Shown: positions 13,848 through 26,775 of the stretch, piece after piece
How positions within the stretch are numbered: the stretch's first letter is position 1
Layout of the letters: the number at the start of each line of letters is the position of its first letter
Origin: an uncultured Thermoplasmata archaeon
Lineage (GTDB): Archaea > Thermoplasmatota > Thermoplasmata > Lutacidiplasmatales > UBA184
Direction: 5' to 3'
Length of the DNA: 64,000 nucleotides
Assembly: GCA_963771555.1 (NCBI GenBank)
Contig: CAVYTM010000001.1
Location: 633,064 to 697,063, forward strand
The notes under the pieces: model-generated
The model's input: the letters and a program-made list of their open reading frames with translations, nothing else
What the model was told of the DNA's origin: nothing
Databases searched by the model: none
Made by a program: the position numbers and the translations under genes

Positions 13848-14075
13848 TTACTTCGAGGAAGTCGCCTGCTTGAGCTCGTGGCGCGCGAGATAGCTGCGGC
13901 CCAGGACGAATCCGATCCCGGCACCGATCACGCCGCCGACGATGATCCCGATGATGAGGTACTCGAGCGCCGGCAGCAGGTCGCTCATGTCGAGGTAGGC
14001 GATCTGCTGAAGGAAGATCACGATGACGATACCGAGCACGACCCCGCAGGAGGCGCCGTGGGACGTGGCGCTCAC
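13848..14075 (-). CDS. small two-TM membrane protein
   Basis: 75 aa with two hydrophobic helices (GVVLGIVIVIFL and LIIGIIVGGVIGAGIGFVLG). GTG start overlaps the TGA of the upstream gene (GTGA at 14072-14075). Confidence 0.45.
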   Translation of the reverse strand: MSATSHGASCGVVLGIVIVIFLQQIAYLDMSDLLPALEYLIIGIIVGGVIGAGIGFVLGRSYLARHELKQATSSK

Positions 14076-14809
14076 GAGCTGCCTCCTGGCGGCGGGGTCT
14101 CCGCCGCAGCCGGCTCGGCCGTGGGTGGAGACTCGGTCGGCGGGGTCGATGGCGGTGAAGTCGACGGCGGCGGGGTCGAAGGTGGCGAGCCCGCGAGCTT
14201 GCGGCCCAGCGCGGCGTAGCGACCGGACCGGACGAGCGCGTAGATCTCGTAGATCGCGATGATCAGGAGCACGATCGGAATGGCCGCCACGAAGCCGAAC
14301 AGCGCGTTCGCTCGAACGTAGAAGTTCTCGCTGAACAGCGTCGTTTGGTTCGGGGAGAGGAAGCTCGCGGTGATCTTGTACACGCCTTCGAGGACGTACG
14401 CGATCGAGAGAGGAGTCCAGGTCAGCGGAATGCTCCCGTTCGCGCTCGCGATGGGGTTGTTGACGGTCTGGGTCCGGGTCGTGACGGCGAAGCCGAAATA
14501 GAACATCTGCAGCTGGGCGCTACCCACGGTGACTTTGGCCGAGGAACCCGTGGCCCAGTTGAACAAGACGCTGGCCGAGGTCGTGAAATCGATGCCCAAC
14601 GCGGAGGACGAGGTCGAAGCGGTCTGGACGTCGACGTTGTTCCAGGTTACGGACCATGCGGCCGCGGCAAAGGGTTCGGCCCCGGAGGGCTGGGAGGCGG
14701 GGCTCGCCCTCGCCGGAACCGGCACGCTCACGAGGAGGGCAACGACCGCCATCGCGAGGAACGCGCCCACGAGCCCCGCACGCCCGGCCGCCCGGCGAAG
14801 GAAACGCAT
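14072..14809 (-). CDS. secreted/membrane protein with signal peptide, one TM helix and Pro/Ser/Thr-rich tail
   Basis: Signal peptide GLVGAFLAMAVVALLVSVPVPARA. Beta-rich extracellular region with NxS/T sequons. TM helix FGFVAAIPIVLLIIAIYEIYALV. C-terminal repeats PPSTPPPSTSPPSTPPTESPPT. TATA-like box at the expected upstream distance. Confidence 0.55.
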   Translation of the reverse strand: MRFLRRAAGRAGLVGAFLAMAVVALLVSVPVPARASPASQPSGAEPFAAAAWSVTWNNVDVQTASTSSSALGIDFTTSASVLFNWATGSSAKVTVGSAQLQMFYFGFAVTTRTQTVNNPIASANGSIPLTWTPLSIAYVLEGVYKITASFLSPNQTTLFSENFYVRANALFGFVAAIPIVLLIIAIYEIYALVRSGRYAALGRKLAGSPPSTPPPSTSPPSTPPTESPPTAEPAAAETPPPGGSS

Positions 14810-14830
14810 GTCCTCCGCACGGAGCTCGGG

Positions 14831-14838
14831 TTTATCAA
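14831..14838 (-). promoter_or_regulatory. TATA-like box (TTGATAAA on the minus strand) 22-29 nt upstream of the 14809 start codon
   Basis: AT-rich octamer in a GC-rich intergenic region. GGAGG lies just before the ATG. Confidence 0.3.
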
Positions 14839-14884
14839 CCCATGCTTACGAGGTGTCCGAAGTCCGCTGAACTTCCGCTGGGTC

Positions 14885-17800
14885 CTAGGTCGGGGCAGGC
14901 GCGCCCCCGAAGGTGGCCCGGAATCGTTCGAGGTCCTCGGTCTTCATCAACGACGGGGCGAGGTAGACCCAGATCCGAGCGTCGTTCTCGCGCGCCAATC
15001 GGTCGAATTGCACGAGGCCGTTGAGGACGACATCGGCACCGTGGAGGCGGACCAGATACTCCACCCCTTCGAGGAAGAACGCCGTCACCTGTTCCTCGAG
15101 CAACTTCTTAGTGAGGAAGCTCCACGCACCCTCGAGATCCGAGGGACGAAGTGCCGGCCCCCGTCCGATGTTCGTCAACCAGAACACCTCGACCGGCCGC
15201 GACCCGACCCGGGCCCGGATCCGCTCAGGAGACTCGCGAACGACGCACACGCCGTGGTGGCCCGCGGACGCCGCTTCGAGAAATCCGCTGAGCGACGAGA
15301 CGAGCGAATCGCCGACCATGAGTTCGATCCCCGAGGGGGGAGCCGCGGGTTCCGGTTCGATCGGTTCGGAAAGAATGGTCGGAGGGACGGTGGTCCCCGC
15401 GTCGGTCGACGGCGTCGCGGCTTCCAAGGGCGCCGCCGGAGCGACTTCGCTCGCACCAAGTTCGGTTTCAAGGGGCGGCAACGGTCGGACCATCTCCGGC
15501 GGAGGAACCACCGGGGGACTAACTTCGGATTCCGGAGGGACCGGTGGGGCCGCCTCGATCGGCGAGAGGACCGAGGGAGAATCTCCTTCGAGGGGTTTGT
15601 CGGTCGAGGATTCTTCGGGCGATGGCAGCTCCTCGGGGATAGGCGGGATGGTTTCTCGGACCGGCTCGGGAGGTTCCTCCGGGGGTGGCGTCTCGCCGGG
15701 CGTCGACGGAGTCTCCAGGACGTTCGGAACCGAGGGTGTTTCAGGCGGGCTGAGGTCAGGGGGCGAGTCCCTCTCGGTCGGCTCGTTCATGACCGGTTCC
15801 GGAGAAGCCAGTTCGGGCGGGGGAGTCTCCAGTGTCGCGCGCACGGAGTCGACCGACTCGGGGGGAACCGGCTCGGGGACGACCAGCTCAGTCGGTAACG
15901 GTCCGGGCACAGCCGACTCCACCGGAGCCCGTTCGGGGGTCGCGGGTTCCGGGACGAGGGGTTCGGAATCGGCAGCGACCTGGTCCGAAGGAATGCTAGG
16001 TCCCTCCGTCCCCTCAACCTCCTGAGTGCCTTCGGGGGGCAGTGGGGGGATGGGAGCGGTCTCCTCCTCCGAGGGAGTCTCGAGTTCGGGCATCGGATTC
16101 TCGGGAGGTTCGGCCGGCTCGCTGGCCGGCGAGAGTTCCATTTCTGCGATCGAAGACGCCGGTGGGATGATGTCCGTTGGTCCCGGAGTTTCTTCCATCA
16201 ACGGAGCGGGGGCCGTCGATTCGGCCACCTCGGTCGGGGCCATTGGAACGGGAGCCTCGAGGTCCACCTCCGGGGATGGCATGACCGGTTCTGGAGGTGC
16301 ACTCGCGTCGGGGATCTCCCCCTCCGGAGCTGCGGCAAGGTCAGCTTCCTCGTGGACCTCCGGGCCCGCCACATCCACTGCCGGGGGGGCTGTCTCGATC
16401 GCGAGGTCATCTGCCTTCGGCGATGGGAGAGCGGTGGCACCGATCGGTTGCGCAATCTCGTTTCGAACGGGGGGAGGGACCGGTTCCGAGGAAGGGGGCG
16501 TTTCGGCCATCGCGGGAACGGGACTCTCGATTCGGAGGCCTTCTAGCGCCCCGAAGTCTCGACTCGCTTCCGTCGCGGGCTCGGCCACAGGGCGAGCCCG
16601 GAACTCCGGGGCGGCGGCCCGGATCGCCCTGACCGGCGGTGGGCGGGTCCGTCGGGTCGAAGCCGGCGGGATGATCCCGCCGAGCTTCGAGAACACGGCC
16701 TCGGCGACCGGCCCGCCGAAGCCCGGGAGTTCGGACACCGTCTCGAACGATGCATGGCGCAGGTCGTCGACGCTGTGGATGCCCTGCTCCCACGCACCCG
16801 CGACCTTCGACGGGCCGAGGAGGGGAACGCCGAGAATGTCATCCAGCTCCTGGCCCAGGGCTCGAACCGCCTCCTCGTGGGCCACGAATTTCTCGTCCGA
16901 GTAGTCGAATTCCTCGGGAATCGCTGCGGTCGACGTCGAGACCCGCTCCATCCGGACGCGCGCCCGTGGCCGCTTCTCGTGTCGGGGCGGGAGCGGAAGG
17001 TCGGGAATATGGATCCACCATCGGTCCCCCGTTCGTGTGCGTCCGGTCATCGAGTCCGGTGGGATCGCTCCCTCCGATTTCTCGACGACCCGGAGCTCCC
17101 GAAGTCCCAGGTAGCGGGCGATCGGCTCCGCGGCGGCCCGAAGCTCCGGAGCGAGGGGGTCGTGGGCGGTGACGAGAGCGACGCGCGTCGGCGTACCCGA
17201 AGTCGCGCCCGCCGAGCGGAGCCTCCGCTCGATGCGACGCACGAGCCAGAACGCGTCCCCGGAGAGCGGTGGAGCTCGCGCCCGTGCGAAATCCGCGCCG
17301 GCCGGAAGTTCGAGGTACAGCTCCCCGAGTGAGCACGGCACGGGAACGACCCGATCGGGCAGCGTGTCGGAGAGAGCCACCATGTTCGGGAAGATCCGAC
17401 GCGGCAGCCCATTGATCACGACCGTGAGCTCCTCGTGCCCCGCCGCCGTCTCCCACCGGCGCGGCGCCATCCGCGACAGCAGGTGGACGATCTGCGAAGC
17501 CTGGGAAGGGTAGGCCTTCTGGATCTCCGCCTCGATCGGGCGGATCGTGCGCTGGCGGCCGGTCCAAGGCTCGCGCGGCGACGCGACCTCGAATCGTTGG
17601 ACCCCGGCGAGGCGGGCGAGGGTCTCTTTCTCCGCCCGGAGCTTGTCGCCCACGTCGTCGGCCGAAACGACCAGAACGAGCGACGGTAGGACGGTTGTCC
17701 GAGGCACCGCGAGCGACCGCCGGAATCGATCGACACTGTGCAGCACCTTCCACCAACGGTCCCAGGCGGCGACCAATTCGTCGTTGAGCAGGGCCCGATC

Positions 17801-19930
17801 GAGACCGGCCATCGGTTGCTCGAAGACGCTGGTCCTTTCGGCAGCGAGGGCACGGTGCATCGCTTCCGAAGTGAACGGGAGGATGGGTGCGAGGACCTCC
17901 GAGAGGCCCCGTAGGAGATGGGCGAGCGTCCGGAGGGCCGCCCGCTTGGTGGTCGGGGTCCCCGCCAACGCGAGACGCGGGGCGACGAGCGCCCGGTACT
18001 CCACGAGGTCGTTATCGAGGAATCGGAACGCACGGCGGTGCACGAGCGCCGGCGCCCAGTGGTCGTAGTGAGCGAGCGCGAGGGTCCGGGTGCGTTCCCA
18101 TCGCGCGAGGATCGCGCGATCCTCTACCTCGAGGTCCCCGAGGAACCCTCCGATCGGCCGCGCGAACGCCGCCAGTATCGAGGGGTCGCACATCCCGAGC
18201 ACCTCCTGGGAGAGCACCCACCAGCGCCGGATCCGGTCGGATTCCTGACGACACCGCTCCGCGAAACTTCCCCGAGGGCAATCCGAGAGTCCGGTGCGGA
18301 TGAACGCCGCGCGAACGGCATCCGCGCCGAAGCTGACCACGAGCTCGGGAGCGTCGTTCGCCGCGACCGTCGGGATGACGGTCAGGTTCACCTCGCCGAC
18401 GAAGCCCTGCACTCCCGAGAGTGCGGCCAGGTGATTGACGAGCGAGGGGACGCGTCGGCGTTGCCCTACGTACAGATGGACCGAGTCCCCGTCGGGAAAG
18501 GGGTCAAAACGGGCCCAAGCCGAGAAGGCTCCGCCGCTCGAGGGAAGGAGTCGCCGCTGGATGATCGTCCGTTGACCGCCGCACGGGCAGGCCACGGGGC
18601 CGTCCGGCGCTGCGAGTCGATCGCATCGTGCGCATTCGAGCAGAGCCACTGCGGTGGGGTCCTCGCTGGTGAGCGCTTCGCTGACGGGCCACGGAGCGAC
18701 CTCCGCGAGGTCCGGGAGCGTCTCCTCGGGCAGAAGGCGAGAGAAGAGTTCTCGACGTTCGGGAGGAAGATGGGAAGGTTCGAGGCACCAGGCGCGACCG
18801 GGGGCCCACAGGAGCGACGTACCGCATATCGCGCACCGGGGAACTCCCCGCTTCACGCGCAATCGCGCGAGCAAGGCACCCGCTTCCGAAAGGTCGCGCA
18901 GGACGAATTCGTTGGCGCTCTCGAGGTCGAGGCCCGCGTACTTGTGGAGGAGCGTGAAGTCGAGCGTTCCCTTCGGGGTGACGAGGGGCCAACCGGTGAC
19001 ACCGGTCCGGGCCGCGATCCGGCCATCGGTAGGCCCGTGGCCGGGCACGAGGGGAACGATGCCGGTGCCGGTGTCGGTCACATCGGACGCCCCGAGGATG
19101 GTGCCGCCCGGGGCGGCCAGGTCTCCGCCGATCGGAAACTCATGGCGTAGGGGATAGGAATAGGCCGTTCCCTGGAACGCGCGCCCGGGATGCTCCTCGA
19201 CGATCTCGAGCGAAGCTTCCGGGATCCAGGTACGGAGACGGTCCAGGGACGATTTCGAGGTGAGGACCAACTCTCGGTCGTCCCGCCGTCGATAGCCCGC
19301 GATCACGTACGTGAGGTCCGGGTTCACGAGGAGCGCGCTCGTGCCGAGGAGCTTCCACGGGACATCGACCCAAACGAGGACGTTGACGGTCAGGTCCTTG
19401 AGCCGCACCGGAAAGCGTACGAGGAACGTGTCGCCCTCTCGTTCCTCGTAGATGATGCGTTCGGGACTTCGCGGCGACCCGCACGAGGGGCACATGCGGA
19501 AAGCACCGTCGCGGGTGACCAGAATCCCCTTCGCCGCGAGTCGGCCGACGATCGCCTGGACACCGGCGTGTCGGTCCTCCGAATCCCACGGAGTTGCGCC
19601 GTCTCCTCCGGTCCAGACGCCCAGCGCGGTCAGAAGCGCGGGTACGGCCGAGGTCGCCGTCGGTCCCGCTCCCGTGCCCTGGCGCAGGGTCGCCACCGCG
19701 CGCCGGCCGACGAGCTCGAGGTATCGGGCGTCGACGTCGGCGACCACCGCTCGGTGAGCTACCAGGGAAGGGAAGTCGCCCTGGGTCCACGCTCCGACAT
19801 ACTGCCGGACCGCGGGTCCGCTCGGGGGGCCGAGCACCCCACCCGCCGGGGGCAGCCGCCGTCCCCTCCAGAGGGTGAGGACGTCCCCTTCGACCGAATG
19901 TGCGTTGTAATCGGGAGGGACCGTGTCCAT
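14885..19930 (-). CDS. giant 1681-aa protein: degenerate isoleucyl-tRNA-synthetase-like core (~aa 1-960), HhH motif, ~430-aa Pro/Glu-rich acidic linker, C-terminal ~150-aa domain of unknown function
   Basis: Class-Ia aaRS-like segments: an N-terminal region aligning to the HIGH region but reading GDFPSLVAHRAVVADVDARY (HIGH lost); editing-domain-like LVPGHGPTDGRIAARTG; Zn-knuckle-like RCAICGTSLLWAPGRAWC and CARCD...CPCGG; a KMSKS-equivalent position reading LTVIPTVAANDAPELVVSFGADAVRAAF (KMSKS lost, the FGADAxR motif retained); anticodon-binding-like LDNDLVEYRALVAPRL...LSEVLAPILPFTSEAMHRAL. Then HhH (LLGPSKVAGAWEQGIHSVDDLRHASFETVSELPGFGGPVAEAV). PE-rich low-complexity region over nt ~16510-15220. 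C-terminal globular region FFLEGVEYLVRLHGADVVLNGLVQFDRLARENDARIWVYLAPSL. Confidence 0.7.
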   Translation of the reverse strand: MDTVPPDYNAHSVEGDVLTLWRGRRLPPAGGVLGPPSGPAVRQYVGAWTQGDFPSLVAHRAVVADVDARYLELVGRRAVATLRQGTGAGPTATSAVPALLTALGVWTGGDGATPWDSEDRHAGVQAIVGRLAAKGILVTRDGAFRMCPSCGSPRSPERIIYEEREGDTFLVRFPVRLKDLTVNVLVWVDVPWKLLGTSALLVNPDLTYVIAGYRRRDDRELVLTSKSSLDRLRTWIPEASLEIVEEHPGRAFQGTAYSYPLRHEFPIGGDLAAPGGTILGASDVTDTGTGIVPLVPGHGPTDGRIAARTGVTGWPLVTPKGTLDFTLLHKYAGLDLESANEFVLRDLSEAGALLARLRVKRGVPRCAICGTSLLWAPGRAWCLEPSHLPPERRELFSRLLPEETLPDLAEVAPWPVSEALTSEDPTAVALLECARCDRLAAPDGPVACPCGGQRTIIQRRLLPSSGGAFSAWARFDPFPDGDSVHLYVGQRRRVPSLVNHLAALSGVQGFVGEVNLTVIPTVAANDAPELVVSFGADAVRAAFIRTGLSDCPRGSFAERCRQESDRIRRWWVLSQEVLGMCDPSILAAFARPIGGFLGDLEVEDRAILARWERTRTLALAHYDHWAPALVHRRAFRFLDNDLVEYRALVAPRLALAGTPTTKRAALRTLAHLLRGLSEVLAPILPFTSEAMHRALAAERTSVFEQPMAGLDRALLNDELVAAWDRWWKVLHSVDRFRRSLAVPRTTVLPSLVLVVSADDVGDKLRAEKETLARLAGVQRFEVASPREPWTGRQRTIRPIEAEIQKAYPSQASQIVHLLSRMAPRRWETAAGHEELTVVINGLPRRIFPNMVALSDTLPDRVVPVPCSLGELYLELPAGADFARARAPPLSGDAFWLVRRIERRLRSAGATSGTPTRVALVTAHDPLAPELRAAAEPIARYLGLRELRVVEKSEGAIPPDSMTGRTRTGDRWWIHIPDLPLPPRHEKRPRARVRMERVSTSTAAIPEEFDYSDEKFVAHEEAVRALGQELDDILGVPLLGPSKVAGAWEQGIHSVDDLRHASFETVSELPGFGGPVAEAVFSKLGGIIPPASTRRTRPPPVRAIRAAAPEFRARPVAEPATEASRDFGALEGLRIESPVPAMAETPPSSEPVPPPVRNEIAQPIGATALPSPKADDLAIETAPPAVDVAGPEVHEEADLAAAPEGEIPDASAPPEPVMPSPEVDLEAPVPMAPTEVAESTAPAPLMEETPGPTDIIPPASSIAEMELSPASEPAEPPENPMPELETPSEEETAPIPPLPPEGTQEVEGTEGPSIPSDQVAADSEPLVPEPATPERAPVESAVPGPLPTELVVPEPVPPESVDSVRATLETPPPELASPEPVMNEPTERDSPPDLSPPETPSVPNVLETPSTPGETPPPEEPPEPVRETIPPIPEELPSPEESSTDKPLEGDSPSVLSPIEAAPPVPPESEVSPPVVPPPEMVRPLPPLETELGASEVAPAAPLEAATPSTDAGTTVPPTILSEPIEPEPAAPPSGIELMVGDSLVSSLSGFLEAASAGHHGVCVVRESPERIRARVGSRPVEVFWLTNIGRGPALRPSDLEGAWSFLTKKLLEEQVTAFFLEGVEYLVRLHGADVVLNGLVQFDRLARENDARIWVYLAPSLMKTEDLERFRATFGGAPAPT

Positions 19931-19956
19931 ATCGATAGATCGTTCCCTATCGATAG
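19930..19956 (-). promoter_or_regulatory. two direct copies of the palindrome-containing 9-mer TATCGATAG (19930-19938 and 19948-19956) in the divergent promoter region; the upstream copy sits where a TATA box would lie for the giant gene
   Basis: Read directly from the sequence. This is the lowest-GC segment between the giant gene start (ATG at 19930-19928) and aIF-5A. Each copy contains ATCGAT. Confidence 0.3.
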
Positions 19957-20070
19957 GATACCGGTTCGCGGGATTAAACCCTCGTCGGGGAAACCGGTGG
20001 CCGAGAAGCCCCCCGACCGGGGGAACTCTTATCCTCCCGCAAATCTGCCCGCCACCCGAGGAACGACCCG

Positions 20071-20457
20071 ATGGCCTGGAGCACGCAGGAAGTCCGTGAG
20101 CTCAAAGAGGGCCGTTACATGCTCATCGACGAGGAGCCCTGTCGAATTCTGAGCATCCAGACCTCCAAGCCAGGGAAACACGGCGAGGCGAAAGCGCGGA
20201 TCGACGCAGTCGGACTCTTCGATGGCTCCAAGCGCAGTGTCGTCTACCCCGTGAAGCACAAGGTCCAAGTGCCGTTGATCGGGAAGCGGCAGGCCCAGGT
20301 CCTCTCCATGACCGACGCCGAGGTCCAATTGATGGACCTCGAGTCCTACGAGACATTCAGCCTCCCGCTCGACGCCGAGACCAAGACGCAGGTCGCTCCG
20401 GGCGCCGAGGTCCAGTACCTCGACGCGATGGGAAAACGGCGGATTACCCGCACCTAG
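20071..20457 (+). CDS. eif5a: translation initiation factor 5A (aIF-5A)
   Basis: Hypusination-loop motif [13 protein letters not shown]; OB/SH3-like KOW N-domain; 128 aa. Confidence 0.9.
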
Positions 20458-20608: not shown

Positions 20609-23600
20609 TTGGGGTCCGTATCGTCGTCCCGCCTCACCCGCATCCTCCAAGAAAAGGCCGAAGCGCTGAAGAAACAGCGGCAAACGGCCGAAGCGACGCT
20701 GAAGGATATCGACGATCAGATCGCGATGCTGGACCAGCTCGGCATCGCTCCGCCGGAAGCGCACGAACGCCAAGTGGCCCTGCGCGAGCTCGCCCGCCGC
20801 GCCGACTGGAACGGCGTGGAGAGTCAGTCCAAGGCCATGACCGATTACCTCTCGAAGACCGTTCCCACGACCATCCAGGAACGTCGAACCCGGACGGCCG
20901 AATCGGTGCGCCGGTTCTCCGGCCTCGGGCTCGTGGTCCCGGCGGAGGTCAACACGGAGCTCGCCGCGCTCGCCCATCCTCCTGAGGGCGAAGCGTGGTC
21001 GGCGACCGTGGCGCGGCTCGCTCACGTGGAAGAGGCGCTCCACACGTCGGAGATGGCCCACGTCAATGAGGTCCGGGAGCGAGCCCTCGCGGTCGCCACC
21101 TGGGCGGGCCTGACCGGGGCCCGTCGGAGCGAGTTCGAAAAGCGTCTCGACGACGCGCTGCTCCCCGTCAAGGAGGACCGTCTCGCCGAAGCGTTCGAGG
21201 GGGTGGACCGACTGCTCCGGACCGGCCTCCCCGAATCCGCCGGCCGCCGCCAGAAGGTCCAGGACGAGGGCACGCGGCTCGTCGCGGCGGCCAAGGAGTT
21301 CGGCGCCCCGACCTCGCATCTGGAAGCGGCGCTCACGGCGGGGGCCGACGCGGCTCCGGACCGGTGGCCCGACGTCGTCCCCACGGCCGAAGTCGCGATC
21401 CGGGAGGTGGGCGAAGCGCTCCGCGAGCGCTGCGTCCAGATCCTCGAGGCGCTGCGCACCTCCCTCGATTCGACCCGGGAGTACGGGTGGACCCCTCCTC
21501 CGCTCGCCTCGCCGTCGACGACGCCTTGTCCCGCATTCGAACTTCACCCGCACTCGAGATCGGTCCGATCTTCCTCGAGGCCCGTCGGGCCGCCGAGGAG
21601 CCGATCGTCACCGTCGTCGCCGGACTTCTCGACGAGGCCCGGCCCCGGATCGCGGACGCCCGTCGATTGGGCCGCGACCCCAGCGAAGTGTTCGCCGCGA
21701 TGAACCGGGCGCGCGAGGCGCTTCGCCTCAAGATCTACTCGGAGGCCTTCGCCGCGAGCCAAGAGGCCCTCGACAAGGTCAGCCGGCTCACGGACGAGCT
21801 CGACACCGCGCGCGACGAGCTCCAATCGCTCGAGGAGATGGCCGCTCGATTCCGAAAGACCGGCTTCTCGGTCGAACCGTTCGACCCCTCGCTCATCCGC
21901 ATCCGAGCTTCGCTCGACCGGGCCGAAGTGACGCAGGCCCGAGAACTGCTGAAGGACACGGTCGTCCACCTCGGGCGCGAAGCCCTCCAGTTCTTCGCCC
22001 AGCGCTGGGCGGGCCTCGACAAGGCCCGAGATTACGCGAGGGAACGCCAATTCCTCTCCCCCGACGCCGACCGGGACATGAACGAAGCACGCGAGCTTCT
22101 CGACAAGGGCGAGCTCGCGGAGAGCGCCGAGCGGATCTCCCGCGCCGAGACGGAGCTCCGCCGGGCGGCGACACCGTATGTGGCGCGCCGCGTGGAAGAG
22201 ATGGAGCAGGGACTTTCCGATATTCCGGACGAGGCGTTGGTCGCCCCGGTCCGCCGACTCCTCGCGGACGCGGACGTGACCCTACGGGTCAAGCAGGACC
22301 TGATGGGCTCGATCGAAAGCCTGCGCCGGGCCGAACGTGAGTTCGGCGCAGTCGTCGCGGCGCACGCCTCCGCGCTGGTCGAGATCCTCGAGGCCGAGCG
22401 CGAGGTGCTCGAGACGATGGGCGGGCCGAGCGACGAGATCCAGCGGCAGATCGACGAGGTCCAGCAGATCTTCAACATGGGGGACTTCGTCAAGGCGTCG
22501 CGGGCCTCGCAGGAGATCCGCACCCGCGCCCAGCAGCAGCAGCTCCTGAGGAGCGAGGAGTCGGTCTCGCACGCCAAGCTCTCGCTCGTCGAGCTCGAGA
22601 CGATGGGGTTCGACCTCACGAAGTTCCGTGGGCAGCTCGACGAAGCGCAGAGCGCGGCACGCGCGGCCCGATTCGCGGACGCCTACCGACTCGCGACGCG
22701 ACTCGAAGAGTCCGCGCTGCGGGCCCGAGCCGCCGGACAAGCGATCCTCGAGGGGATCGCGCGCACGCAGGAAACCCTTGGACGCCTTCGCGAAGGCGGG
22801 GTCGACCCGAATCCGTTCTACGAGCCCCTGCGCAACGTTCGCCTCGCGTTCCAGAGCCTGGACTTCGACCGGGCCCACGCGACGCTCGAAGAGGTCGAGC
22901 ACAAGCTCGGGGACGAGGCCGCGCGAGGCGAAACGACCCGGCTCCTCGGGGACGTGGAACACCTGATCGAGGACGGCCGCCGGCTCTCCTCCCCGATGGA
23001 ACCGTTCCAGGCCCGCCTGGAGCAGCTTCGCACCGAAGCCGCGACCGCTCCTCCCGAGGCGACCCGGACCGGCGCCCGGCTCCTCCACGAGGAGCTCAAC
23101 GCGATCATCCGGCCGATCCTGGACGAGAACCTTCGGGCCCTCGAACGCGACTTGGACATTGCGCGCTCCGCCGGGGTCGACCTCGACAAGATCCTCTTAC
23201 CGCTCGGTGAAGCGCGCCGAAGGATCGCCCTTCCGGTGCCGATCGGCGCGGCGGCGCTGCTCGATGCTGCGCGCGCGGAATTCGTGTCGACGAGGGGCTT
23301 CGTCGAACACGCCGAACGGGTGGCCAAGCGGGCCCGCGAAGCCCTGGCCGAAGCGGACCTTCTCCACGTCCACACTCCCTCGCTGCGAGAACAGATGGAA
23401 CGGATCGACAAGCTGCTCGCGGAGCGCCAGTACGCCCGCGTGGTCGAGCTCGGTGGTCCCCTCGAGCGGGAGCTGATCCAAGCGACCTACCAACACGTAT
23501 CGAAGACCTTGGCGGGGTTCCAGGCGACCGTGACCCGGCTGCGCAAGGAAGGCATCGACACTTCGCTCGCCGAGAATCTCCTCCATCGGGCCCGCATGGC

Positions 23601-25086
23601 GCTCGACGAAGGACGCCCCGTCGAGGCCCTTCAGCTCGCGGGACAGAGCGAAGGCGAGCTCGAACGAGCGGACCTCCAGCGGCGCATCGCGGAAGGCTCG
23701 CTCGCGGCCGCCGAGGCATCCATCGGACGGGCCACCGTGGACGGCATATTGTCTCCCGTCGCCACCGAAGAGCTCGCCGCTGCGAAGCTGGCGTTCCAGG
23801 GCCACGAGTACCCCCCGGTCCTCGAGCACTCCCTCCTCGCCTCCGACGCGCTTGGTATCGCGCGCGAGGGTCACCGCCGAGCTCGGGACGCCCTTGCGGC
23901 GGCGGAACGACAGATTCGCGAGGCGTCCGACGTGGGCGCCGACACCGAGCCCGCGAGCCTGCGAGCCGGCGAAGCTCGCCAGCAGATCGACGCAGGGCTC
24001 TATCCCGACGCGACCCGAGTTGCTCGGGAAGCCACCGAGGAGGCTCGCTGGGCGATCGAGAGGCTCTTCGCGGGCCCGATCGGTGAGCTGCGCCGGAAAC
24101 TCGATTCGGCCCGGCACGAGGGTCTCGGTGCCGAGGTCGACCCGATCGAGGCGATCCTCGGTGAGGCCGAGACCGCCCTCCGCGCCCGGGATTGGGGCCG
24201 CGTCAAGGAGGCCATCGCTCGGGGCGAGGCCGCTTGTGTCCGGATCATCGACGAGATCGTCGACGGCCGGTGGCGCGAAGTCGAGGCGGAGTATGTGCGC
24301 ACTTCCGACGGCCCGCCGGCCGAGGTCGACCGGAGGTCGGAGGTCCGAGTCCAGCTGACGGCGCTCCGCGACCACCACGACTACGGTGCCGCGCTCGTCC
24401 TCGTACGCTCCGAACTCGAGCTCGCCCGCCAACGCCGCCGCGAGGACATCGAGCGACAGATGGCCGAGTTCAAAGATCGCCTCTGGGTCGGTGAGCGACT
24501 CGCCCTCGACACGACCCCGGTCATGCAAACCTTCAGCGAAGCCCGGGTGGCCCTCGATGCCGGCCGTCCGGACGAGGCCGAGGCACTACTGGCCCGGGCG
24601 ACGAGCGCCCTCGAGCCGACGGTCCGCGAGCCGTACACCCGTCGGTGGCGCGAGCTTCAGACGGAGATCAATTTTGCCCAGGAGGGCCTGCACGTCAAGG
24701 TCGGGCCGATCCGGGAACGACTGCAGCAGGTCGAGGAGCTCGACCGTTCGGGCCAACTGCTCGACGCGGCCCGCCTCTTGCTCAAGACCGAGGAGGAGCT
24801 CAACCTGCGAAAGTCGCTCCATCGGGAGCTGATGAATCTCCACTACCTCATCGACGCCGCGCTCACGAAGGCCCACGAACTTCGGGTCGATACGTCCGAG
24901 GCACGGGCGCTGCTCGCGGAGTCCCTGAGGCTGCGAGAGACCGACTATTCCGCCGCGCTCGAGAAGGCGCGCGAGGCCCTACGCAAGTTGCAGAGCGCGG
25001 GTGTCGGAATGGTCGAGGGTGTCGTACCGCCGTCGCCGGCGGCGAACCCGTTCTGGCCTTTCCGACGGCCTCCGTCCGAGCCGTAA
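20609..25086 (+). CDS. very large (~1490 aa if joined) alpha-helical repeat protein of unknown function; frame interrupted at ~21485-21487
   Basis: ORFs 20609-21703 and 21364-25086 overlap by 340 nt in different frames. Adding one G after GAG-TAC-GGG (21485-87) gives the continuous ...LDSTREYGVDPSSARLAVDDALSRI.... The body has at least 13 ~80-aa helical modules anchored by A-L-x-x-G-[DR]-[YFW]-x-x-A (e.g. LRARDWGRVKEAIARGEAA, LDAGRPDEAEALLARATSA, LRETDYSAALEKAREAL). TTG start. Confidence 0.6.
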
Positions 25087-25090
25087 TCGC

Positions 25091-25549
25091 CTACGCGGAC
25101 GACAAGTAGCTGGTGCCGACGGGCGTCGGCGGAAGCCCCGCCGGCCCCCGCGGGGGTCCGAGAGGAAGGCGGTCGTACTCCACCGTGTGCTTGATACCTC
25201 TCCGACGGAGAAGGGTCGATACCTGCTCCGTGATCTGCACGACCTCCTGGCATCGGGCGGGCTTCGCAAAGTAGAACTCGGCGCGTCGTTCGTCCGCGAT
25301 CGGGAAGATGAGGCGAAGGCCAAACGCATCCTGGCGGTTGTATCCCACCGGCTTTCGGTTGCCCTTGAGGTCCCTCAGGTTCTCGTCGAGGAGAACCTCC
25401 GGGAGGAGAGGGTCCGACTCCTTGACGAACGGACGGTTCATTTCGACGACCCGTTTGTGGATCTCGGGGTAGACGCGGACGAGGTCGCGGTACGACCGTT
25501 TCGGGTCCAAGAGGATGTGCCCGCTGCGCGCCTTGACCGGGGGAGTCAC
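25091..25549 (-). CDS. hypothetical protein (152 aa)
   Basis: Protein-like composition (DLVRVYPEIHKRVVEMNRPFVKESDPLLPEVLLDENLRDLKGNRKPVGYNRQDAFGLRLIFPIADERRAEFYFAKPARCQEVVQITEQ). The antisense ORF 25001-25576 and the overlapping Arg-rich ORF 24945-25679 were judged less likely. Function not recognised. Confidence 0.35.
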   Translation of the reverse strand: MTPPVKARSGHILLDPKRSYRDLVRVYPEIHKRVVEMNRPFVKESDPLLPEVLLDENLRDLKGNRKPVGYNRQDAFGLRLIFPIADERRAEFYFAKPARCQEVVQITEQVSTLLRRRGIKHTVEYDRLPLGPPRGPAGLPPTPVGTSYLSSA

Positions 25550-25790
25550 GACCAGGAATCGAACCCGGGGTCTTAGGGGCTTCGGGGTCCTCCCGCGACG
25601 CCCCGAACCACGGAAGTGGGGTCGATTTGGCGGTCCCCCTTCGGTACGTGACGTTCTCGGACCTGCGGATGAAATCCACCGCTCGGATGGCGTTTGGTCA
25701 CTACTTTGGGGATGGGAGAGACGTGGGATCGCTAGTGGTTGGTCCCGGCGTCGAAAGGCTCAAAGAGGCTGCCCGCTACCGACTCCGGGC

Positions 25791-25892
25791 GCTCCCGTAG
25801 TCTAGTGGTCAAGGATAGAGGCCTCTCGAGCCTCTGACGCGGGTTCAAAACCGGCCGGCAACGACCGGCTGGGGAAACTCCCGCCGGGAGCA
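25791..25892 (+). tRNA. tRNA-Glu (anticodon CUC) with a ~29-nt non-canonical intron in the T-loop/T-stem junction
   Basis: Acceptor GCTCCCG/CGGGAGC plus discriminator A (archaeal tRNA-Glu-like GCTCC...GGAGCA). D-arm GTCT-AGTGGTCAA-GGAT. Anticodon arm GAGGC-CTCTCGA-GCCTC (U33, CUC, R37). T-stem GCGGG, loop TTCAAAA. The 3' T-stem CCCGC is contiguous with the 3' acceptor only after skipping ~25851-25879 (intron contains the hairpin GCCGG-CAACGA-CCGGC). No intron-less fold satisfies the acceptor pairing. Confidence 0.65.
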
Positions 25893-26040
25893 CCTCGCCC
25901 GCCCTTCCGCGCTGACCGAGAACCCGCCCGAGGGCGGTCACTCTCGAAGACACGGGGTTCCCGGCGCCCCAATCCGTGCAATCGCCCCGACCTTCCCCAA
26001 GGGTGAGGTCCTTATCTGTGGGTCGCCGTTCGAACTATCC

Positions 26041-26775
26041 GTGGTAAACGATCCTCCCGCCGAGGAGCTCTTTCCGGGAGGCTTCGGCAAACCCTCCTCG
26101 GTCTTCATCTCGGGGAGCAGCCGCTCGTTGCTGAAGTGGTTCGCGTTCGCCTCGCTCGCACCGTACACCTCTCGGGTCTACTGGACCGACGTTCGCCTGC
26201 CGGGAGAGATTCTCGACCCTCTCGACCCGATGTCCATCCATGCCATTCCGGAAGAATCGGTGTACGTTCTCCTGCCCCGGGACCTTTCGCCGGACGACCA
26301 AGGAGCCCATCAGGCCGAAGTGGCCGCGGCCACCATGCTCCGGTCCGATGCCAGCGCGAACTCGATTGAGGGTCTCGTGGAGTTCCTCCGCATGCCGAGC
26401 CACGCCCAGAAGCTGATCTCGGCCACGGGCCGTCCGGGCGCACCCTCGATTCTTGTTACGGCCAATGCCCAGCGCCTCGCCTCGGCGTATCCGCAAGATC
26501 GCATTGCTCCGCTGATGCGCACTATGTTAGAATCCGGAACTTGCCAGGTCGCCCTTTGGGCCGAAGCCCCCACGACATTCACATCGATCTTCGATATCAT
26601 TCTCCACGTGGAAGGAAACGGTTCGGCGGACTGGCGCAACGCGACCGTGCGATGCGAGAAGGGAATCTCCGCCGGACCGCTCGCGTCCGGACGGACCACC
26701 CGCCTCTCCGAGATAGGGTCGATCTCCGCGATACTCGAGAAGTCGGTCCCGACCCCCCCGAGGGGCCCGGGGTAA
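26041..26775 (+). CDS. conserved hypothetical protein, paralog family member 2 (unknown function)
   Basis: 244 aa; paralog of 8826-9539 (shared motifs GSSRxLLxW, YWTDVRLxxExLDPLDP, and EFLxxPxHxQ further along). GTG start. Confidence 0.6.
   Translation: MVNDPPAEELFPGGFGKPSSVFISGSSRSLLKWFAFASLAPYTSRVYWTDVRLPGEILDPLDPMSIHAIPEESVYVLLPRDLSPDDQGAHQAEVAAATMLRSDASANSIEGLVEFLRMPSHAQKLISATGRPGAPSILVTANAQRLASAYPQDRIAPLMRTMLESGTCQVALWAEAPTTFTSIFDIILHVEGNGSADWRNATVRCEKGISAGPLASGRTTRLSEIGSISAILEKSVPTPPRGPG

What the first reader, a model, noticed from the sequence alone, without database searches (positions are those of the whole stretch)
14885..19930. Giant pseudo-aminoacyl-tRNA-synthetase fusion: IleRS-like core with lost HIGH/KMSKS, HhH motif, ~430-aa PE-rich acidic linker and an uncharacterised C-terminal domain
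A single 5046-nt ORF encodes a full-length class-Ia synthetase homolog. Recognisable parts are a Rossmann half, a CP1 editing-like HGPTDG segment, Zn-knuckle cysteine clusters, an FGADAxR motif and the IleRS/ValRS/LeuRS-type anticodon-binding helix bundle. The two catalytic signatures are not recognisable: the HIGH position reads FPSLVAH, and the KMSKS position reads TVAANDAPE. Downstream come a helix-hairpin-helix nucleic-acid-binding motif, a ~430-aa low-complexity Pro/Glu-rich stretch (nt ~16510-15220) and a ~150-aa globular C-terminal region (FFLEGVEYLVRLHGADVVLNGLVQFDRLARENDARIWVYLAPSL). I recall no described archaeal protein with this architecture. It resembles a tRNA-binding scaffold or pseudoenzyme rather than an active synthetase. 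It is transcribed divergently from aIF-5A and sits near a second giant repeat protein, hinting at a translation-associated module.
Basis: partly seen in the sequence, partly recalled or inferred. Interest (0 to 1): 0.85.

Follow-up and report, generated by a model that had tools for sequence, protein, structure and literature searches.

The report
Dead IleRS paralog fused to iKaiC
This 1681-residue archaeal protein is a full-length copy of isoleucyl-tRNA synthetase that has lost every catalytic motif but keeps its tRNA-facing parts. It is tied by a long acidic, proline-rich tether to a KaiC-like signalling domain, so it most likely binds tRNA and reports or scaffolds rather than charging tRNA.

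Summary
The ORF (14885-19930, minus strand, 1681 aa) is real and under purifying selection. It is conserved in at least 105 species-level Thermoplasmata MAGs, mostly from soil and peat.

Residues 1-1000 are a complete type-2/archaeal IleRS fold (AF2 pLDDT 87; Foldseek to 8c9d E 1.5e-49; hhalign to archaeal IleRS E 1e-49). The active-site signatures are gone:
- HIGH reads PSLV.
- GxDxHGLPIE and the KMSKS hairpin are deleted.
- WCISRQ, DVWFDSG and DQxRGWF are replaced.

Both Zn-cysteine clusters, a remodelled CP1 domain (the best-conserved domain), the anticodon-binding domain and a basic C-terminal domain are kept.

After the core come an (HhH)2 domain, a disordered linker of about 440 aa (25% Pro, net charge -69) and a C-terminal domain. 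That domain is not uncharacterised: it is DUF835, an "inactivated KaiC" fold.

The architecture is not unique. Annotated IleRS of Methanomassiliicoccales, including cultured M. luminyensis, carry the same HhH-linker-DUF835 tail on an intact core. Thermoplasmatota show a graded series from intact to dead, and this family is the most degenerate.

My best reading is a non-catalytic tRNA-binding sensor or adaptor feeding a KaiC-type hub; this is inferred, not shown. I could not locate a canonical ileS in the same genome.

The parts
14885..19930 (-). Whole gene: 1681-aa pseudo-IleRS / HhH / linker / DUF835 protein
   Evidence: ORF list and translation. More than 120 protein clusters at 90% identity have the same architecture. 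105 species-level genomes hold a relative. dN/dS over the whole gene is 0.16-0.24.
19973..19978 (-). TATA-like box (TTTAAT), 43-48 nt upstream of the ATG and preceded by GAGGG
   Evidence: A GGTTTAT(T/A/C)-type element lies upstream of the ATG, at roughly -45 to -75, in nearly all of 24 orthologous loci inspected. Promoter function is inferred from the archaeal BRE/TATA consensus, not tested.
19556..19930 (-). N-terminal half of the Rossmann fold, catalytically stripped (aa 1-125)
   Evidence: The AF2 model shows strand 40-48 followed by helix 54-73. hhalign and MAFFT both align this region to canonical IleRS. dN/dS is 0.04 against L001. It contains no lysine.
19760..19771 (-). HIGH-equivalent position, reads PSLV (aa 54-57)
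   Evidence: Canonical archaeal IleRS have H[IVL]G[TH] here. All family members lack both the His and the Gly.
19679..19699 (-). Site of the 11-residue deletion that removes GxDxHGLPIE (aa 78-84, AVATLRQ)
   Evidence: MAFFT alignment with 20 canonical and 20 DUF835-fused IleRS; hhalign shows a gap here.
18776..19555 (-). CP1 (editing-type) insertion domain with Zn knuckle 1 (aa 126-385; C147, C150, C366, C369)
   Evidence: It aligns to the IleRS CP1 domain. It is the best-conserved domain in the family, at 68.5% mean identity. The four cysteines are invariant. dN/dS is 0.08.
19340..19372 (-). Remodelled Thr-rich editing peptide: WVDVPWKLLGT in place of WTTTPWTLPAN (aa 187-197)
   Evidence: W187, D189 and W192 are invariant in the 66-sequence alignment A1. 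In E. coli numbering, T241-243 become V-D-V, T246 becomes K and N250 becomes T. The derived PWK(L/I)L form is shared with several other degenerate DUF835-fused relatives.
19025..19069 (-). GTGIVPLVPGHGPTD (aa 288-302): second editing-site motif. The His is lost (P293); the universal Asp is kept (D302).
   Evidence: E. coli H333 aligns to P293 and D342 to D302. G290, V292, P296, G297, H298 and D302 are invariant.
18296..18775 (-). C-terminal half of the Rossmann fold with Zn cluster 2 (aa 386-545; C433, C436, C448, C450) and an invariant RRR (491-493)
   Evidence: List of invariant residues. hhalign shows WCISRQ replaced by WPVSE, and DVWFDS and DQTRGWF lost. This segment contains no lysine.
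18344..18391 (-). Site where the KMSKS hairpin should be (aa 514-529, VNLTVIPTVAANDAPE). A 16-residue deletion is followed by FGADAVR.
   Evidence: MAFFT alignment. The AF2 topology is strand 514-519, a short loop, then helix 527-534. hhalign gives a different register, but it contains no lysine either.
17585..18295 (-). Anticodon-binding helical bundle (aa 546-782)
   Evidence: Pfam Anticodon_1 E 2.9e-11, above its cut-off. It aligns to IleRS2 residues 601-849. pI is 9.3.
16931..17584 (-). IleRS type-2/archaeal C-terminal domain equivalent (aa 783-1000). Very basic, with the helix SGDAFWLVRRIERRLR.
   Evidence: Foldseek alignment spans full-length IleRS2, whose best-matching entries include one described as having a fully resolved C-terminal tRNA-binding domain. 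hhalign aligns the region to the DUF5915 part, with AEGxARDxIRRIQEMRK matching SPDAFWLVRRVxxRLR. pI is 11.
16661..16903 (-). (HhH)2 domain (aa 1010-1090)
   Evidence: HHH_5 E 4e-5, below its cut-off. The AF2 model gives five helices with pLDDT above 90. The family profile hits the eL32 N-terminal region of haloarchaeal ribosome structures (e.g. 1s72/1jj2) and Pol X.
15344..16660 (-). Disordered Pro/Glu-rich acidic linker (aa 1091-1529)
   Evidence: pLDDT is below 50. It has 110 Pro, net charge -69 and five PPP runs. Length across the family is 256-521 aa at only 28.5% identity. dN/dS is 0.29-0.55.
14906..15343 (-). DUF835 / inactivated KaiC-like (iKaiC) domain (aa 1530-1675)
   Evidence: PF05763 scores 34.1 bits against a cut-off of 33.1. 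AF2 pLDDT is 94-98. Foldseek hits FlaH 4yds and KaiC. It is 29% identical (E 1e-15) to the C-terminal DUF835 of M. luminyensis IleRS. There is no GKT P-loop (sequence).
20071..20457 (+). aIF5A, transcribed divergently (conserved neighbour; functional link not shown)
   Evidence: Pfam IF5A-like_N plus eIF-5a. It is adjacent and divergent in 75 of 80 loci.
21364..25086 (+). 1240-aa all-helical protein downstream of aIF5A (conserved neighbour; function unknown)
   Evidence: Present in 65 of 80 loci at 43-98% identity. It has no Pfam, NCBIfam or PDB match.

Best explanation
**What it is (shown).** The gene encodes a non-catalytic paralogue of archaeal isoleucyl-tRNA synthetase.
- The whole IleRS scaffold is preserved and under purifying selection: Rossmann core, two Zn knuckles, CP1, anticodon-binding bundle and a basic C-terminal domain.
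- Every element that binds ATP or isoleucine, or stabilises adenylate formation, is deleted or replaced. It cannot charge tRNA.
- It descends from IleRS-HhH-DUF835 fusion proteins, which in Methanomassiliicoccales and other Thermoplasmata are annotated as the isoleucine--tRNA ligase.

**How it probably works (inferred).**
- The dead core still docks tRNA, most likely tRNA-Ile. The anticodon-binding and C-terminal domains would hold the body of the tRNA.
- The remodelled but highly conserved CP1 pocket would hold the 3' end. It keeps the Asp that anchors the alpha-amino group of an aminoacyl moiety.
- The protein would thereby read tRNA availability or charging state.
- That information, or the bound tRNA itself, is coupled through an (HhH)2 nucleic-acid anchor and a ~440-aa acidic proline-rich entropic tether to a C-terminal inactivated-KaiC domain.
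- The iKaiC domain cannot hydrolyse ATP. It is predicted to plug into KaiC-type ATPase assemblies, which have been proposed as archaeal signalling hubs.
- The logic resembles eukaryotic GCN2, where a dead HisRS-like domain senses uncharged tRNA and controls a signalling domain.

My confidence in the identity (a dead IleRS paralogue fused to iKaiC) is about 0.9. My confidence in the sensor/adaptor mechanism is about 0.35-0.4.
For: **Fold and homology.** AF2 pLDDT 87 and pTM 0.82. Foldseek to IleRS2 8c9d over the full length, E 1.5e-49. hhalign to archaeal IleRS, probability 100%, E 1e-49, residues 3-925.

**Catalytic loss.**
- HIGH reads PSLV; the GxDxHGLPIE and KMSKS loops are deleted.
- WCISRQ, DVWFDS and DQTRGWF are replaced.
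- There is no lysine in either Rossmann half.
- TIGR00392 scores 110.7 bits against a cut-off of 621.

**Retained tRNA-facing parts.**
- Anticodon_1 scores above its cut-off.
- The anticodon-binding and C-terminal domains are basic, with pI 9.3 and 11.
- The conserved basic C-terminal helix aligns to the IleRS ARDxIRRIQEMRK motif.
- The Zn ligands are invariant.
- CP1 is the most conserved domain, with D302 (E. coli D342) invariant.

**Selection.** dN/dS is 0.04-0.23 in folded domains and 0.29-0.55 in the linker.

**Conservation.** At least 105 species-level genomes, all Thermoplasmata, at 38-96% identity. The architecture is conserved in more than 120 clusters.

**C-terminal domain.** It is DUF835 with a KaiC/FlaH-like fold and no P-loop. 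DUF835 is listed as an 'iKaiC' output domain of archaeal response regulators (PMC5847659).

**Ancestry.**
- Intact IleRS with the same tail score 931-980 bits on TIGR00392. They include M. luminyensis IleRS.
- There is a graded series down to 315-355 bits, and then to this family.
- The family nests within that radiation and shares the derived PWK(L/I)L peptide with several other degenerate members.
Against: - No binding, structural or expression data exist. tRNA binding is inferred from retained domains only, and I did not test anticodon-contact residues.
- The function of DUF835/iKaiC is itself only a prediction.
- No KaiC-like ATPase lies in the 64-kb window.
- CP1 being the best-conserved domain, with a new invariant Asp189, fits an enzymatic (hydrolase or transferase) role at least as well as passive sensing.
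- The vestigial active-site cleft has its own invariant arginines (R60, R491-493). This hints at an unknown anionic ligand.
- I could not show a canonical IleRS in the same genome. Paralogy is inferred from the essentiality of IleRS and from the NJ tree, which is exposed to long-branch attraction.
Confidence: 0.4

Rival explanations
1. The protein is still an enzyme, working through its CP1 domain. It would be either a stand-alone trans-editing deacylase or an aminoacyl-tRNA-dependent transferase. It would use the dead IleRS body only to dock tRNA, and the HhH/DUF835 tail to localise or regulate it.
For: - CP1 is the most conserved domain (68.5% identity) with dN/dS 0.08.
- The GTG...HG..D motif with the universal Asp is invariant.
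- The Thr-rich peptide is replaced by a different but equally invariant W-x-D-x-P-W-K-L-L-G-T. That points to a retuned pocket rather than decay.
- There is a precedent for an IleRS homologue using Ile-tRNA as a substrate for non-translational chemistry: SbzA, described in the review PMC9437257.
Against: - Residues important for IleRS editing are all changed: the Thr-rich TTT, T246, N250 and H333 in E. coli numbering (established knowledge; mapping).
- No biosynthetic genes or other partner enzymes lie nearby.
- A housekeeping IleRS normally carries its own editing site, so the need for a trans-editor is unclear.
Confidence: 0.22
2. It is a purely structural scaffold or tether with no signalling role. 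One version is a hub that concentrates tRNA-Ile, the true IleRS or other translation components. DUF835 would oligomerise as RecA/KaiC-type rings do, and the long linkers would act as flexible arms. Another version is a regulatory subunit of the canonical IleRS.
For: - DUF835 has a KaiC/FlaH fold, and such domains commonly form rings (established knowledge for KaiC and FlaH).
- The linker is long, disordered, highly acidic and variable in length, 256-521 aa.
- HhH domains bind nucleic acid non-specifically.
- Synteny with aIF5A is conserved.
Against: - Nothing shows oligomerisation.
- The intact relatives carry the same tail with short linkers, so the tail's role predates the long tether.
- Synteny with aIF5A is confined to this lineage and may simply reflect conserved gene order.
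Confidence: 0.2
3. It is simply the organism's working IleRS with a C-terminal extension and unusual motifs.
For: - Full-length IleRS fold.
- Closely related architectures are annotated as IleRS.
- No other IleRS was found in the window.
Against: - HIGH, GxDxHG, WCISRQ, DVWFDS, DQxRGWF and KMSKS are all missing. Two of them are missing through deletions.
- There is no lysine in the Rossmann halves.
- The ileS model scores 110.7 bits against 621, while intact fused relatives score 931-980.
Confidence: 0.02
4. It is a decaying pseudogene or an assembly/annotation artefact that joins separate genes.
For: High-GC genomes produce long spurious ORFs. Several lie antisense to this gene.
Against: - The ORF is uninterrupted at similar length in more than 100 independent assemblies.
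- dN/dS is far below 1 in every folded domain.
- Hundreds of positions are invariant or nearly so.
- A promoter-like element is conserved upstream.
Confidence: 0.01

Closest known systems
IleRS-HhH-DUF835 isoleucine--tRNA ligases of Methanomassiliicoccales and other Thermoplasmata (e.g. Methanomassiliicoccus luminyensis IleRS, 1301 aa, P0464; P0313, P0202, P0225)
   Same: - Same domain order: IleRS core, DUF5915-type C-terminal domain, HhH, Pro-rich linker, DUF835.
- Same phylum.
- The DUF835 domains align at 29% identity, E 1e-15.
   Different: - Those proteins keep H-x-G-T/H, GFDMHGLPIE and xMSKS.
- They score 931-980 bits on the ileS equivalog model.
- Their linkers are short, about 100-200 aa with 5-15% Pro.
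- The window protein has none of the motifs, scores 110.7 bits and has a ~440-aa linker with 25% Pro.
Degenerate DUF835-fused IleRS-like proteins of other, low-GC Thermoplasmatota ('type B': P0212, P0213, P0215, P0228, P0229, P0231, P0233, P0258)
   Same: - HIGH and KMSKS are lost while the architecture is kept.
- Several members share the derived PWK(L/I)L peptide in CP1.
- They are sister to this family in the NJ tree.
- Where a database name exists (P0215) it is 'class I tRNA ligase family protein'.
   Different: - They are less degenerate: 315-355 bits on ileS, and tRNA-synt_1 is still detected.
- They keep remnants of the GxD block.
- They lack the Pro-rich linker.
Type-2 IleRS (Priestia megaterium IleRS2, PDB 8c9d/8c8v)
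   Same: It is the best structural and sequence match among solved structures. The match covers the whole 1000-residue core, including the C-terminal tRNA-binding domain.
   Different: - Only 17% identity.
- IleRS2 is an active, editing-competent enzyme with no HhH/DUF835 tail.
GCN2 HisRS-like domain (eukaryotic uncharged-tRNA sensor); an analogy from my own knowledge, not homology
   Same: A catalytically dead synthetase-like module is fused in one polypeptide to a signalling module. tRNA binding is proposed as the input.
   Different: - Different synthetase class (class II HisRS versus class Ia IleRS).
- Different output (protein kinase versus inactivated KaiC).
- Different domain of life.
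- tRNA sensing by the window protein is untested.
REC-DUF835 archaeal response regulators (Galperin et al. 2018, PMC5847659)
   Same: The same DUF835/iKaiC domain sits at the C-terminus of a sensory or receiver module. They are found in Methanomicrobia and Thermoplasmata.
   Different: The input module there is a phospho-receiver domain. Here it is a dead IleRS.
Other aaRS paralogues with altered function (Sulfolobaceae LeuRS-I; SbzA, an IleRS homologue), per review PMC9437257
   Same: They are duplicated class-Ia synthetases retained for non-canonical roles.
   Different: - Per the review, LeuRS-I still produces leucyl-adenylates and SbzA transfers Ile from Ile-tRNA-Ile.
- That review's entries for these two mention no KaiC-like or HhH extension, and its IleRS row lists only IleRS2 and SbzA.

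Membership tests
Isoleucine--tRNA ligase (functional IleRS; NCBIfam TIGR00392 equivalog) | Whole-protein score at or above the curated cut-off (621.4 bits) | tested here: not met
   110.7 bits. Intact DUF835-fused relatives score 931-980 bits.
Isoleucine--tRNA ligase (functional IleRS; NCBIfam TIGR00392 equivalog) | HIGH signature (H-x-G-H, or H-x-G-T in archaeal IleRS) at the start of the first Rossmann helix | tested here: not met
   It aligns to P54-S55-L56-V57. No His or Gly occurs here in any family member shown.
Isoleucine--tRNA ligase (functional IleRS; NCBIfam TIGR00392 equivalog) | KMSKS loop | tested here: not met
   16-residue deletion. There is no lysine anywhere in aa 386-545.
Isoleucine--tRNA ligase (functional IleRS; NCBIfam TIGR00392 equivalog) | Amino-acid and adenylate-binding motifs (GxDxHGLPIE, WCISRQR, DVWFDSG, EGxDQxRGWF) | tested here: not met
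   GxDxHGLPIE is deleted. The other three are replaced by WPVSE, RRLLPS and GxRRR.
Class Ia synthetase fold (IleRS/ValRS/LeuRS superfamily, homology only) | Rossmann core + CP1 insertion + helical anticodon-binding domain, with significant sequence or structure similarity | tested here: met
   Foldseek E 1.5e-49 to 8c9d. hhalign probability 100%. Anticodon_1 scores above its cut-off.
Class Ia synthetase fold (IleRS/ValRS/LeuRS superfamily, homology only) | CP1 editing site: Thr-rich peptide, conserved His and universal Asp | tested here: inconclusive
   The Asp is kept and invariant (D302). The Thr-rich peptide and the His are replaced by other invariant residues. Activity cannot be judged from sequence.
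Class Ia synthetase fold (IleRS/ValRS/LeuRS superfamily, homology only) | Two structural Zn-binding Cys clusters of IleRS | tested here: met
   C147/C150/C366/C369 and C433/C436/C448/C450 are invariant in 66 sequences. They align to the canonical CxxC pairs. Metal binding itself was not tested.
DUF835 (PF05763) / inactivated KaiC-like domain | Pfam score at or above the gathering cut-off (33.1 bits) | tested here: met
   34.1 bits, E 2.7e-8, so only just above. Most full-length family members carry PF05763 in the precomputed annotation.
DUF835 (PF05763) / inactivated KaiC-like domain | RecA/KaiC-like alpha/beta fold | tested here: met
   AF2 pLDDT is 94-98. Foldseek hits FlaH 4yds at E 2e-4 and many KaiC chains at E about 1e-3.
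DUF835 (PF05763) / inactivated KaiC-like domain | Absence of a Walker A P-loop (this is what makes it 'inactivated') | tested here: met
   There is no GxxGxGK[ST]. The equivalent stretch reads VGDSLVSSLS (sequence).
DUF835 (PF05763) / inactivated KaiC-like domain | Interaction with KaiC-family ATPases / signalling role | not testable with these tools
   This is a literature prediction only (PMC5847659 citing Makarova et al. 2017). The 2017 paper was not available.
Helix-hairpin-helix (HHH_5, PF14520) | Pfam score at or above the cut-off (27 bits) | tested here: not met
   24.4 bits in the window protein. Some orthologues pass. The AF2 model gives a confident five-helix (HhH)2-like domain. The profile matches HhH regions of eL32 and Pol X. 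It is therefore probably a divergent member.
GCN2-type tRNA sensor (functional analogy only) | Dead synthetase-like domain binds uncharged tRNA and controls the fused output domain | not testable with these tools
   No binding or activity data exist. This is an analogy from established knowledge of GCN2.

The most novel reading that the evidence does not exclude
Thermoplasmatota archaea wire isoleucyl-tRNA metabolism directly into KaiC-type signalling. In some lineages the housekeeping IleRS itself carries an iKaiC output domain. In this soil and peat lineage a duplicated copy has become a dedicated, catalytically dead tRNA (or aminoacyl-tRNA) sensor. That would be an archaeal counterpart of the GCN2 principle, using a class-Ia synthetase ghost and an inactivated KaiC instead of a HisRS ghost and a kinase.
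Probability: 0.25. Interest if true: 0.85.

Novelty: new variant of a known kind. Interest (0 to 1): 0.62.

Why it matters
How archaea sense amino-acid or tRNA-charging status is poorly understood; to my knowledge they lack the RelA/ppGpp stringent response and GCN2.

A conserved protein family couples a synthetase body, live or dead, to a predicted KaiC-type signalling domain. That gives a concrete, testable candidate for such a pathway. One entry point is a cultured organism: M. luminyensis IleRS carries the same tail.

It is also a clean natural series of an essential enzyme turning into a pseudoenzyme. TIGR00392 scores fall from 980 to 702 to about 330 to 110 bits. Such a series is useful for studying how aaRS scaffolds are repurposed.

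There is an annotation consequence too. Partly degenerate members can still pass the ileS cut-off and be named as IleRS. P0210 scores 702 bits although its HIGH and KMSKS motifs are degenerate.

Tried and rejected
1. **Canonical ileS in the same genome: not found, inconclusive.**
   - None lies in the window or within ±10 kb of the 80 orthologous loci (tblastn).
   - Six contig look-ups of candidate canonical or intact IleRS gave record prefixes JAXDQU, JAJPHT, JAWAQE, DASYRW, JAXAXI and CP070726. None is shared with a locus carrying this family.

2. **Pfam tRNA-synt_1** does not detect the core at E<=1. Homology had to be shown with NCBIfam, PDB profiles, hhalign and structure.

3. **hhalign register for KMSKS.** hhalign places KMSKS opposite 'ALSGV' or 'EVNLT'. 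I rejected both registers because they fall in a predicted helix or strand and contain no lysine. The MAFFT deletion model fits the predicted topology.

4. **Neighbours.** The 245-aa membrane protein (14072-14809), orf20545, the 1240-aa helical protein and orf25091 gave no Pfam, NCBIfam or PDB matches. They do not help with function.

5. **No KaiC-like ATPase, aaRS or tRNA-Ile gene** lies in the window.

6. **Literature.** I found no paper describing IleRS-DUF835 or IleRS-KaiC fusions. Makarova et al. 2017 on KaiC-like hubs is not held, so prior mention there cannot be excluded.

7. **Inverted repeat.** The 8-bp inverted repeat just upstream of the ATG is not conserved beyond the closest relative. 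I dropped it as a regulatory element.

Full report
**1.

The minus-strand ORF 14885-19930 begins with ATG and encodes 1681 residues. The region is 67-70% G+C, and long spurious ORFs are frequent on the other strands. Length alone is therefore not evidence for a gene.

Comparison supplies the evidence:
- A search with residues 1-1000 returned more than 120 protein clusters (90% identity level) of 1400-1745 residues, at 50-96% identity. Every cluster that carries an organism name is from a Thermoplasmata MAG. Nearly all carry Anticodon_1 plus DUF835.
- A scan of one genome per species found relatives in 105 genomes. All 80 listed are Thermoplasmata MAGs, many from soil, peat and permafrost studies, at 38-96% identity.
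- Nei-Gojobori dN/dS against four orthologues is 0.04-0.28 for every folded domain, including the two halves of the vestigial Rossmann fold. It is 0.29-0.55 for the linker.
- A GGTTTAT(T/A)-type TATA-like element preceded by GAGG lies upstream of the ATG in nearly all of 24 orthologous loci examined. It is 43-48 nt upstream in the window and somewhat further in the most divergent loci. This supports the annotated start and an independent promoter.

This is a real, single, selected gene.

**2. The core is a complete IleRS fold**

- NCBIfam's ileS equivalog scores 110.7 bits, far below its 621.4 cut-off. The valS models score less.
- Pfam finds Anticodon_1 but not tRNA-synt_1.
- Against PDB sequences the best match is Priestia megaterium type-2 IleRS, 8c9d (E 4e-21; 2e-34 with a 66-sequence family profile). 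Only the CP1/Zn region and the post-KMSKS/anticodon-binding region align.
- hhalign of the family against 13 canonical archaeal IleRS gives probability 100%, E 1.1e-49, over residues 3-925.
- An AlphaFold2 model of residues 1-1000 is confident (pLDDT 87.3, pTM 0.82).
- Foldseek aligns that model to full-length IleRS2. One of the top entries (8c8v) is described as having a fully resolved C-terminal tRNA-binding domain (E 1.5e-49). Other IleRS follow, then ValRS and LeuRS.

Residues 783-1000 therefore correspond to the type-2/archaeal IleRS C-terminal domain (Pfam DUF5915 in relatives).

**3. The synthetic site is gone**

I aligned the family with E. coli IleRS, 20 canonical-length archaeal-type IleRS and 20 longer relatives. 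I cross-checked with hhalign.

| Canonical archaeal IleRS | Window protein |
|---|---|
| H[IVL]G[TH] | P54-S55-L56-V57 |
| G[FWY]DxHGLPIE | 11-residue deletion |
| KMSKS hairpin | 16-residue deletion |
| DWCISRQR | WPVSE |
| DVWFDS | lost |
| EGxDQTRGWF | region centred on an invariant R491-R492-R493 |

In the AF2 model, strand 514-519 runs through a seven-residue loop into helix 527-534, which leads to FGADAVR.

hhalign offers other registers for the KMSKS region, but none contains a lysine. Independently of any alignment, residues 1-125 and 386-545 contain no lysine at all.

The loss is more radical than substitution.

**4. What is kept**

- **Zn clusters.** Both four-cysteine clusters of IleRS are invariant in 66 sequences: C147/C150/C366/C369 and C433/C436/C448/C450.
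- **CP1.** It is the best-conserved domain of the whole protein, at 68.5% mean identity against 53-58% for the other core domains.
- **CP1 pocket.** It is remodelled rather than decayed.
  - WTTTPWTLPAN has become W-x-D-x-P-W-K/R-L-L-G-T, with W187, D189 and W192 invariant in the 66-sequence alignment.
  - GTGxVHxAPGHGxxD has become GTG-I-V-P-L-V-P-G-H-G-x-T-D.
  - In E. coli numbering, T241-243, T246, N250 and H333 are replaced. D342, the universal anchor for the alpha-amino group, is kept as invariant D302.
- **Basic RNA-facing domains.** The anticodon-binding bundle has pI 9.3 and the C-terminal domain pI 11.
- **C-terminal helix.** The conserved helix SxDAFWLVRRxxRRLR aligns with the IleRS motif AEGxARDxIRRIQEMRK.

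This pattern fits a protein that still engages tRNA but cannot make an aminoacyl-adenylate.

**5. The tail**

An AF2 model of residues 1001-1681 shows three parts:
- A confident five-helix (HhH)2-like domain at 1010-1090.
  - Pfam HHH_5 scores 24.4 bits, just under its cut-off.
  - The family profile also matches the HhH-containing N-terminal region of eL32 from haloarchaeal ribosome structures, and Pol X.
- A disordered stretch at 1091-1529.
  - It has 110 Pro, net charge -69 and five PPP runs.
  - Across the family it is 256-521 residues long, at 28.5% identity.
- A very confident alpha/beta domain at 1530-1675.

That last domain is Pfam DUF835 (34.1 bits against 33.1). Its closest solved folds are the KaiC-like archaellum protein FlaH and KaiC CI/CII. 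It has no P-loop (sequence).

Galperin et al. 2018 list DUF835 as an 'iKaiC' (inactivated KaiC-like ATPase) output domain of archaeal response regulators in Methanomicrobia and Thermoplasmata. For the proposal that KaiC-like ATPases are archaeal signalling hubs they refer to Makarova et al. 2017 (PMC5847659).

**6. The architecture has intact relatives**

An exhaustive profile search of 1.84 billion representatives found the family itself first. It then found a second tier of 1290-2330-residue proteins.

Pfam resolves these as tRNA-synt_1 (E down to 1e-122) + Anticodon_1 + DUF5915 + HHH_5 + DUF835. Further searches show that many proteins annotated 'isoleucine--tRNA ligase' in Methanomassiliicoccales and other Thermoplasmata are 1300-1500 residues with this tail. 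They include the IleRS of cultured Methanomassiliicoccus luminyensis (1301 aa).

The M. luminyensis C-terminus reads HhH, then a short Ala/Pro linker, then DUF835. Its DUF835 aligns with the window's at 29% identity, E 1e-15.

The relatives form a graded series on TIGR00392:

| Group | TIGR00392 bits | Motif state |
|---|---|---|
| Intact fused forms | 931-980 | HxGT, GFDMHGLPIE and xMSKS kept |
| P0210 | 702 | HIGH and KMSKS degenerate, yet above cut-off |
| 'Type B' forms | 315-355 | All motifs lost |
| Window family | 110.7 | All motifs lost; two by deletion |

In a neighbour-joining tree the family is sister to type B and nests inside the Thermoplasmatota IleRS-DUF835 radiation. Long-branch attraction is a caveat. 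However, the family shares the derived PWK(L/I)L peptide with several type B members.

The fusion therefore predates the loss of catalysis. The window protein is best read as the most degenerate branch of a paralogous IleRS-iKaiC lineage.

The long proline-rich linker is particular to this family. Among the relatives, Pro is 0-15% in all but one, where the inter-domain stretch is only four residues.

**7. Context**

The block is:
- orf25091
- the 1240-aa helical protein
- aIF5A
- (divergent) this gene
- a small membrane protein

It is conserved across nearly all loci with enough flank: aIF5A in 75 of 80, the helical protein in 65 of 80, orf25091 in 53 of 80. The intact relatives I looked at have other neighbours.

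From established knowledge of eIF5A/EF-P, aIF5A relieves ribosome stalling at polyproline. This gene's linker is 25% proline, which is suggestive. Conserved gene order within one lineage is an equally good explanation.

The rest of the window is ordinary housekeeping and holds no KaiC-like ATPase and no aaRS.

**8. Mechanism**

*Shown:*
- a dead synthetic site;
- a preserved and selected IleRS scaffold with basic tRNA-facing domains;
- a conserved, remodelled CP1 pocket;
- an HhH domain, a disordered acidic tether and an inactivated KaiC-like C-terminal domain;
- descent from IleRS-DUF835 fusions with intact motifs.

*Inferred:* the core binds tRNA (probably tRNA-Ile), with CP1 reading the 3' end. 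Occupancy is then passed on, or the complex localised, through the iKaiC domain to KaiC-type partners. This is GCN2-like logic. I give this mechanism about 0.35-0.4.

*Rivals:*
- A CP1-based deacylase or aminoacyl-tRNA-dependent transferase (0.22). This is favoured by CP1 being the most conserved domain and by the SbzA precedent.
- A non-signalling oligomeric scaffold (0.2).
- An active IleRS (0.02) or a pseudogene/artefact (0.01). Both are effectively excluded.

**9. What remains open**

I could not demonstrate a canonical IleRS in the same genome. Its existence is inferred from the essentiality of IleRS.

I found no publication describing IleRS-DUF835 fusions or this pseudo-IleRS family in the searchable library. 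Databases name the family only 'class I tRNA ligase family protein' or 'DUF835 domain-containing protein'.

**10. Verdict**

This is a new variant of a known kind: an aaRS-derived pseudoenzyme, here derived from an IleRS-iKaiC fusion that also exists in intact form. Interest is moderate to high, because it offers a testable link between tRNA metabolism and KaiC-type signalling in archaea.

Noticed in passing
window 21364-25086 (+): A 1240-aa, apparently all-helical, Ala/Arg/Glu-rich protein lies downstream of aIF5A. It is conserved next to this gene in 65 of 80 loci, at 43-98% identity over the best-matching segment. It has no Pfam, NCBIfam or PDB sequence match.
   Followed up: partly
window 25091-25759 (-): A small ORF whose C-terminal ~130 residues are highly conserved (64-93% identity in 53 of 80 loci), at a fixed position beside the helical protein. 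It has no family or PDB match. The true start is probably internal to the listed ORF.
   Followed up: partly
window 25790-25866 (+): tRNA-Glu(CTC), the only tRNA gene in the window. It overlaps the start of the mechanical ORF 25819-26775.
   Followed up: no
window 30350-31366 (+): An archaeal-type D-aminoacyl-tRNA deacylase (PF04414). It recurs on the same side in 17 of the 18 orthologous loci that hold it, about 7-10 kb from the gene. It is another tRNA-quality-control gene in the wider neighbourhood.
   Followed up: partly
window 19931-19954: An 8-bp inverted repeat, ATCGATAG...CTATCGAT, lies immediately upstream of the gene's ATG. It is present only in the window and, imperfectly, in the 96%-identical locus L001. 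It is not conserved further.
   Followed up: yes
proteins P0210, P0214, P0217, P0241: These DUF835-fused IleRS-like proteins have degenerate or partly degenerate HIGH/KMSKS motifs (e.g. P0210: SLGL, SSANE). P0210 still scores 702 bits, above the ileS cut-off, and P0241 is named 'isoleucine--tRNA ligase'. These may be pseudoenzymes mis-annotated as IleRS.
   Followed up: partly
window 14072-14809 (-): Immediately downstream of the gene is a 245-aa protein with an N-terminal hydrophobic segment, a C-terminal hydrophobic segment and a Pro/Ser/Thr-rich tail. It is found in 33 of 80 loci at 29-89% identity and matches no family.
   Followed up: no
window 60300-63466 (-): Isocitrate lyase and malate synthase lie side by side (glyoxylate shunt). 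Upstream are CoA-transferase and acyl-CoA dehydrogenase genes. This is a metabolic trait worth noting for an uncultured Thermoplasmata lineage.
   Followed up: no
window 735-3830 (+): A 1031-aa thermopsin-family peptidase with several PKD domains, presumably secreted.
   Followed up: no
window 14345-15898 (+) and other antisense ORFs: Very long ORFs (up to 517 aa) lie antisense to the gene, especially over the Pro/Glu-rich linker. This is the expected artefact of 67-70% G+C and is not evidence of overlapping genes.
   Followed up: no
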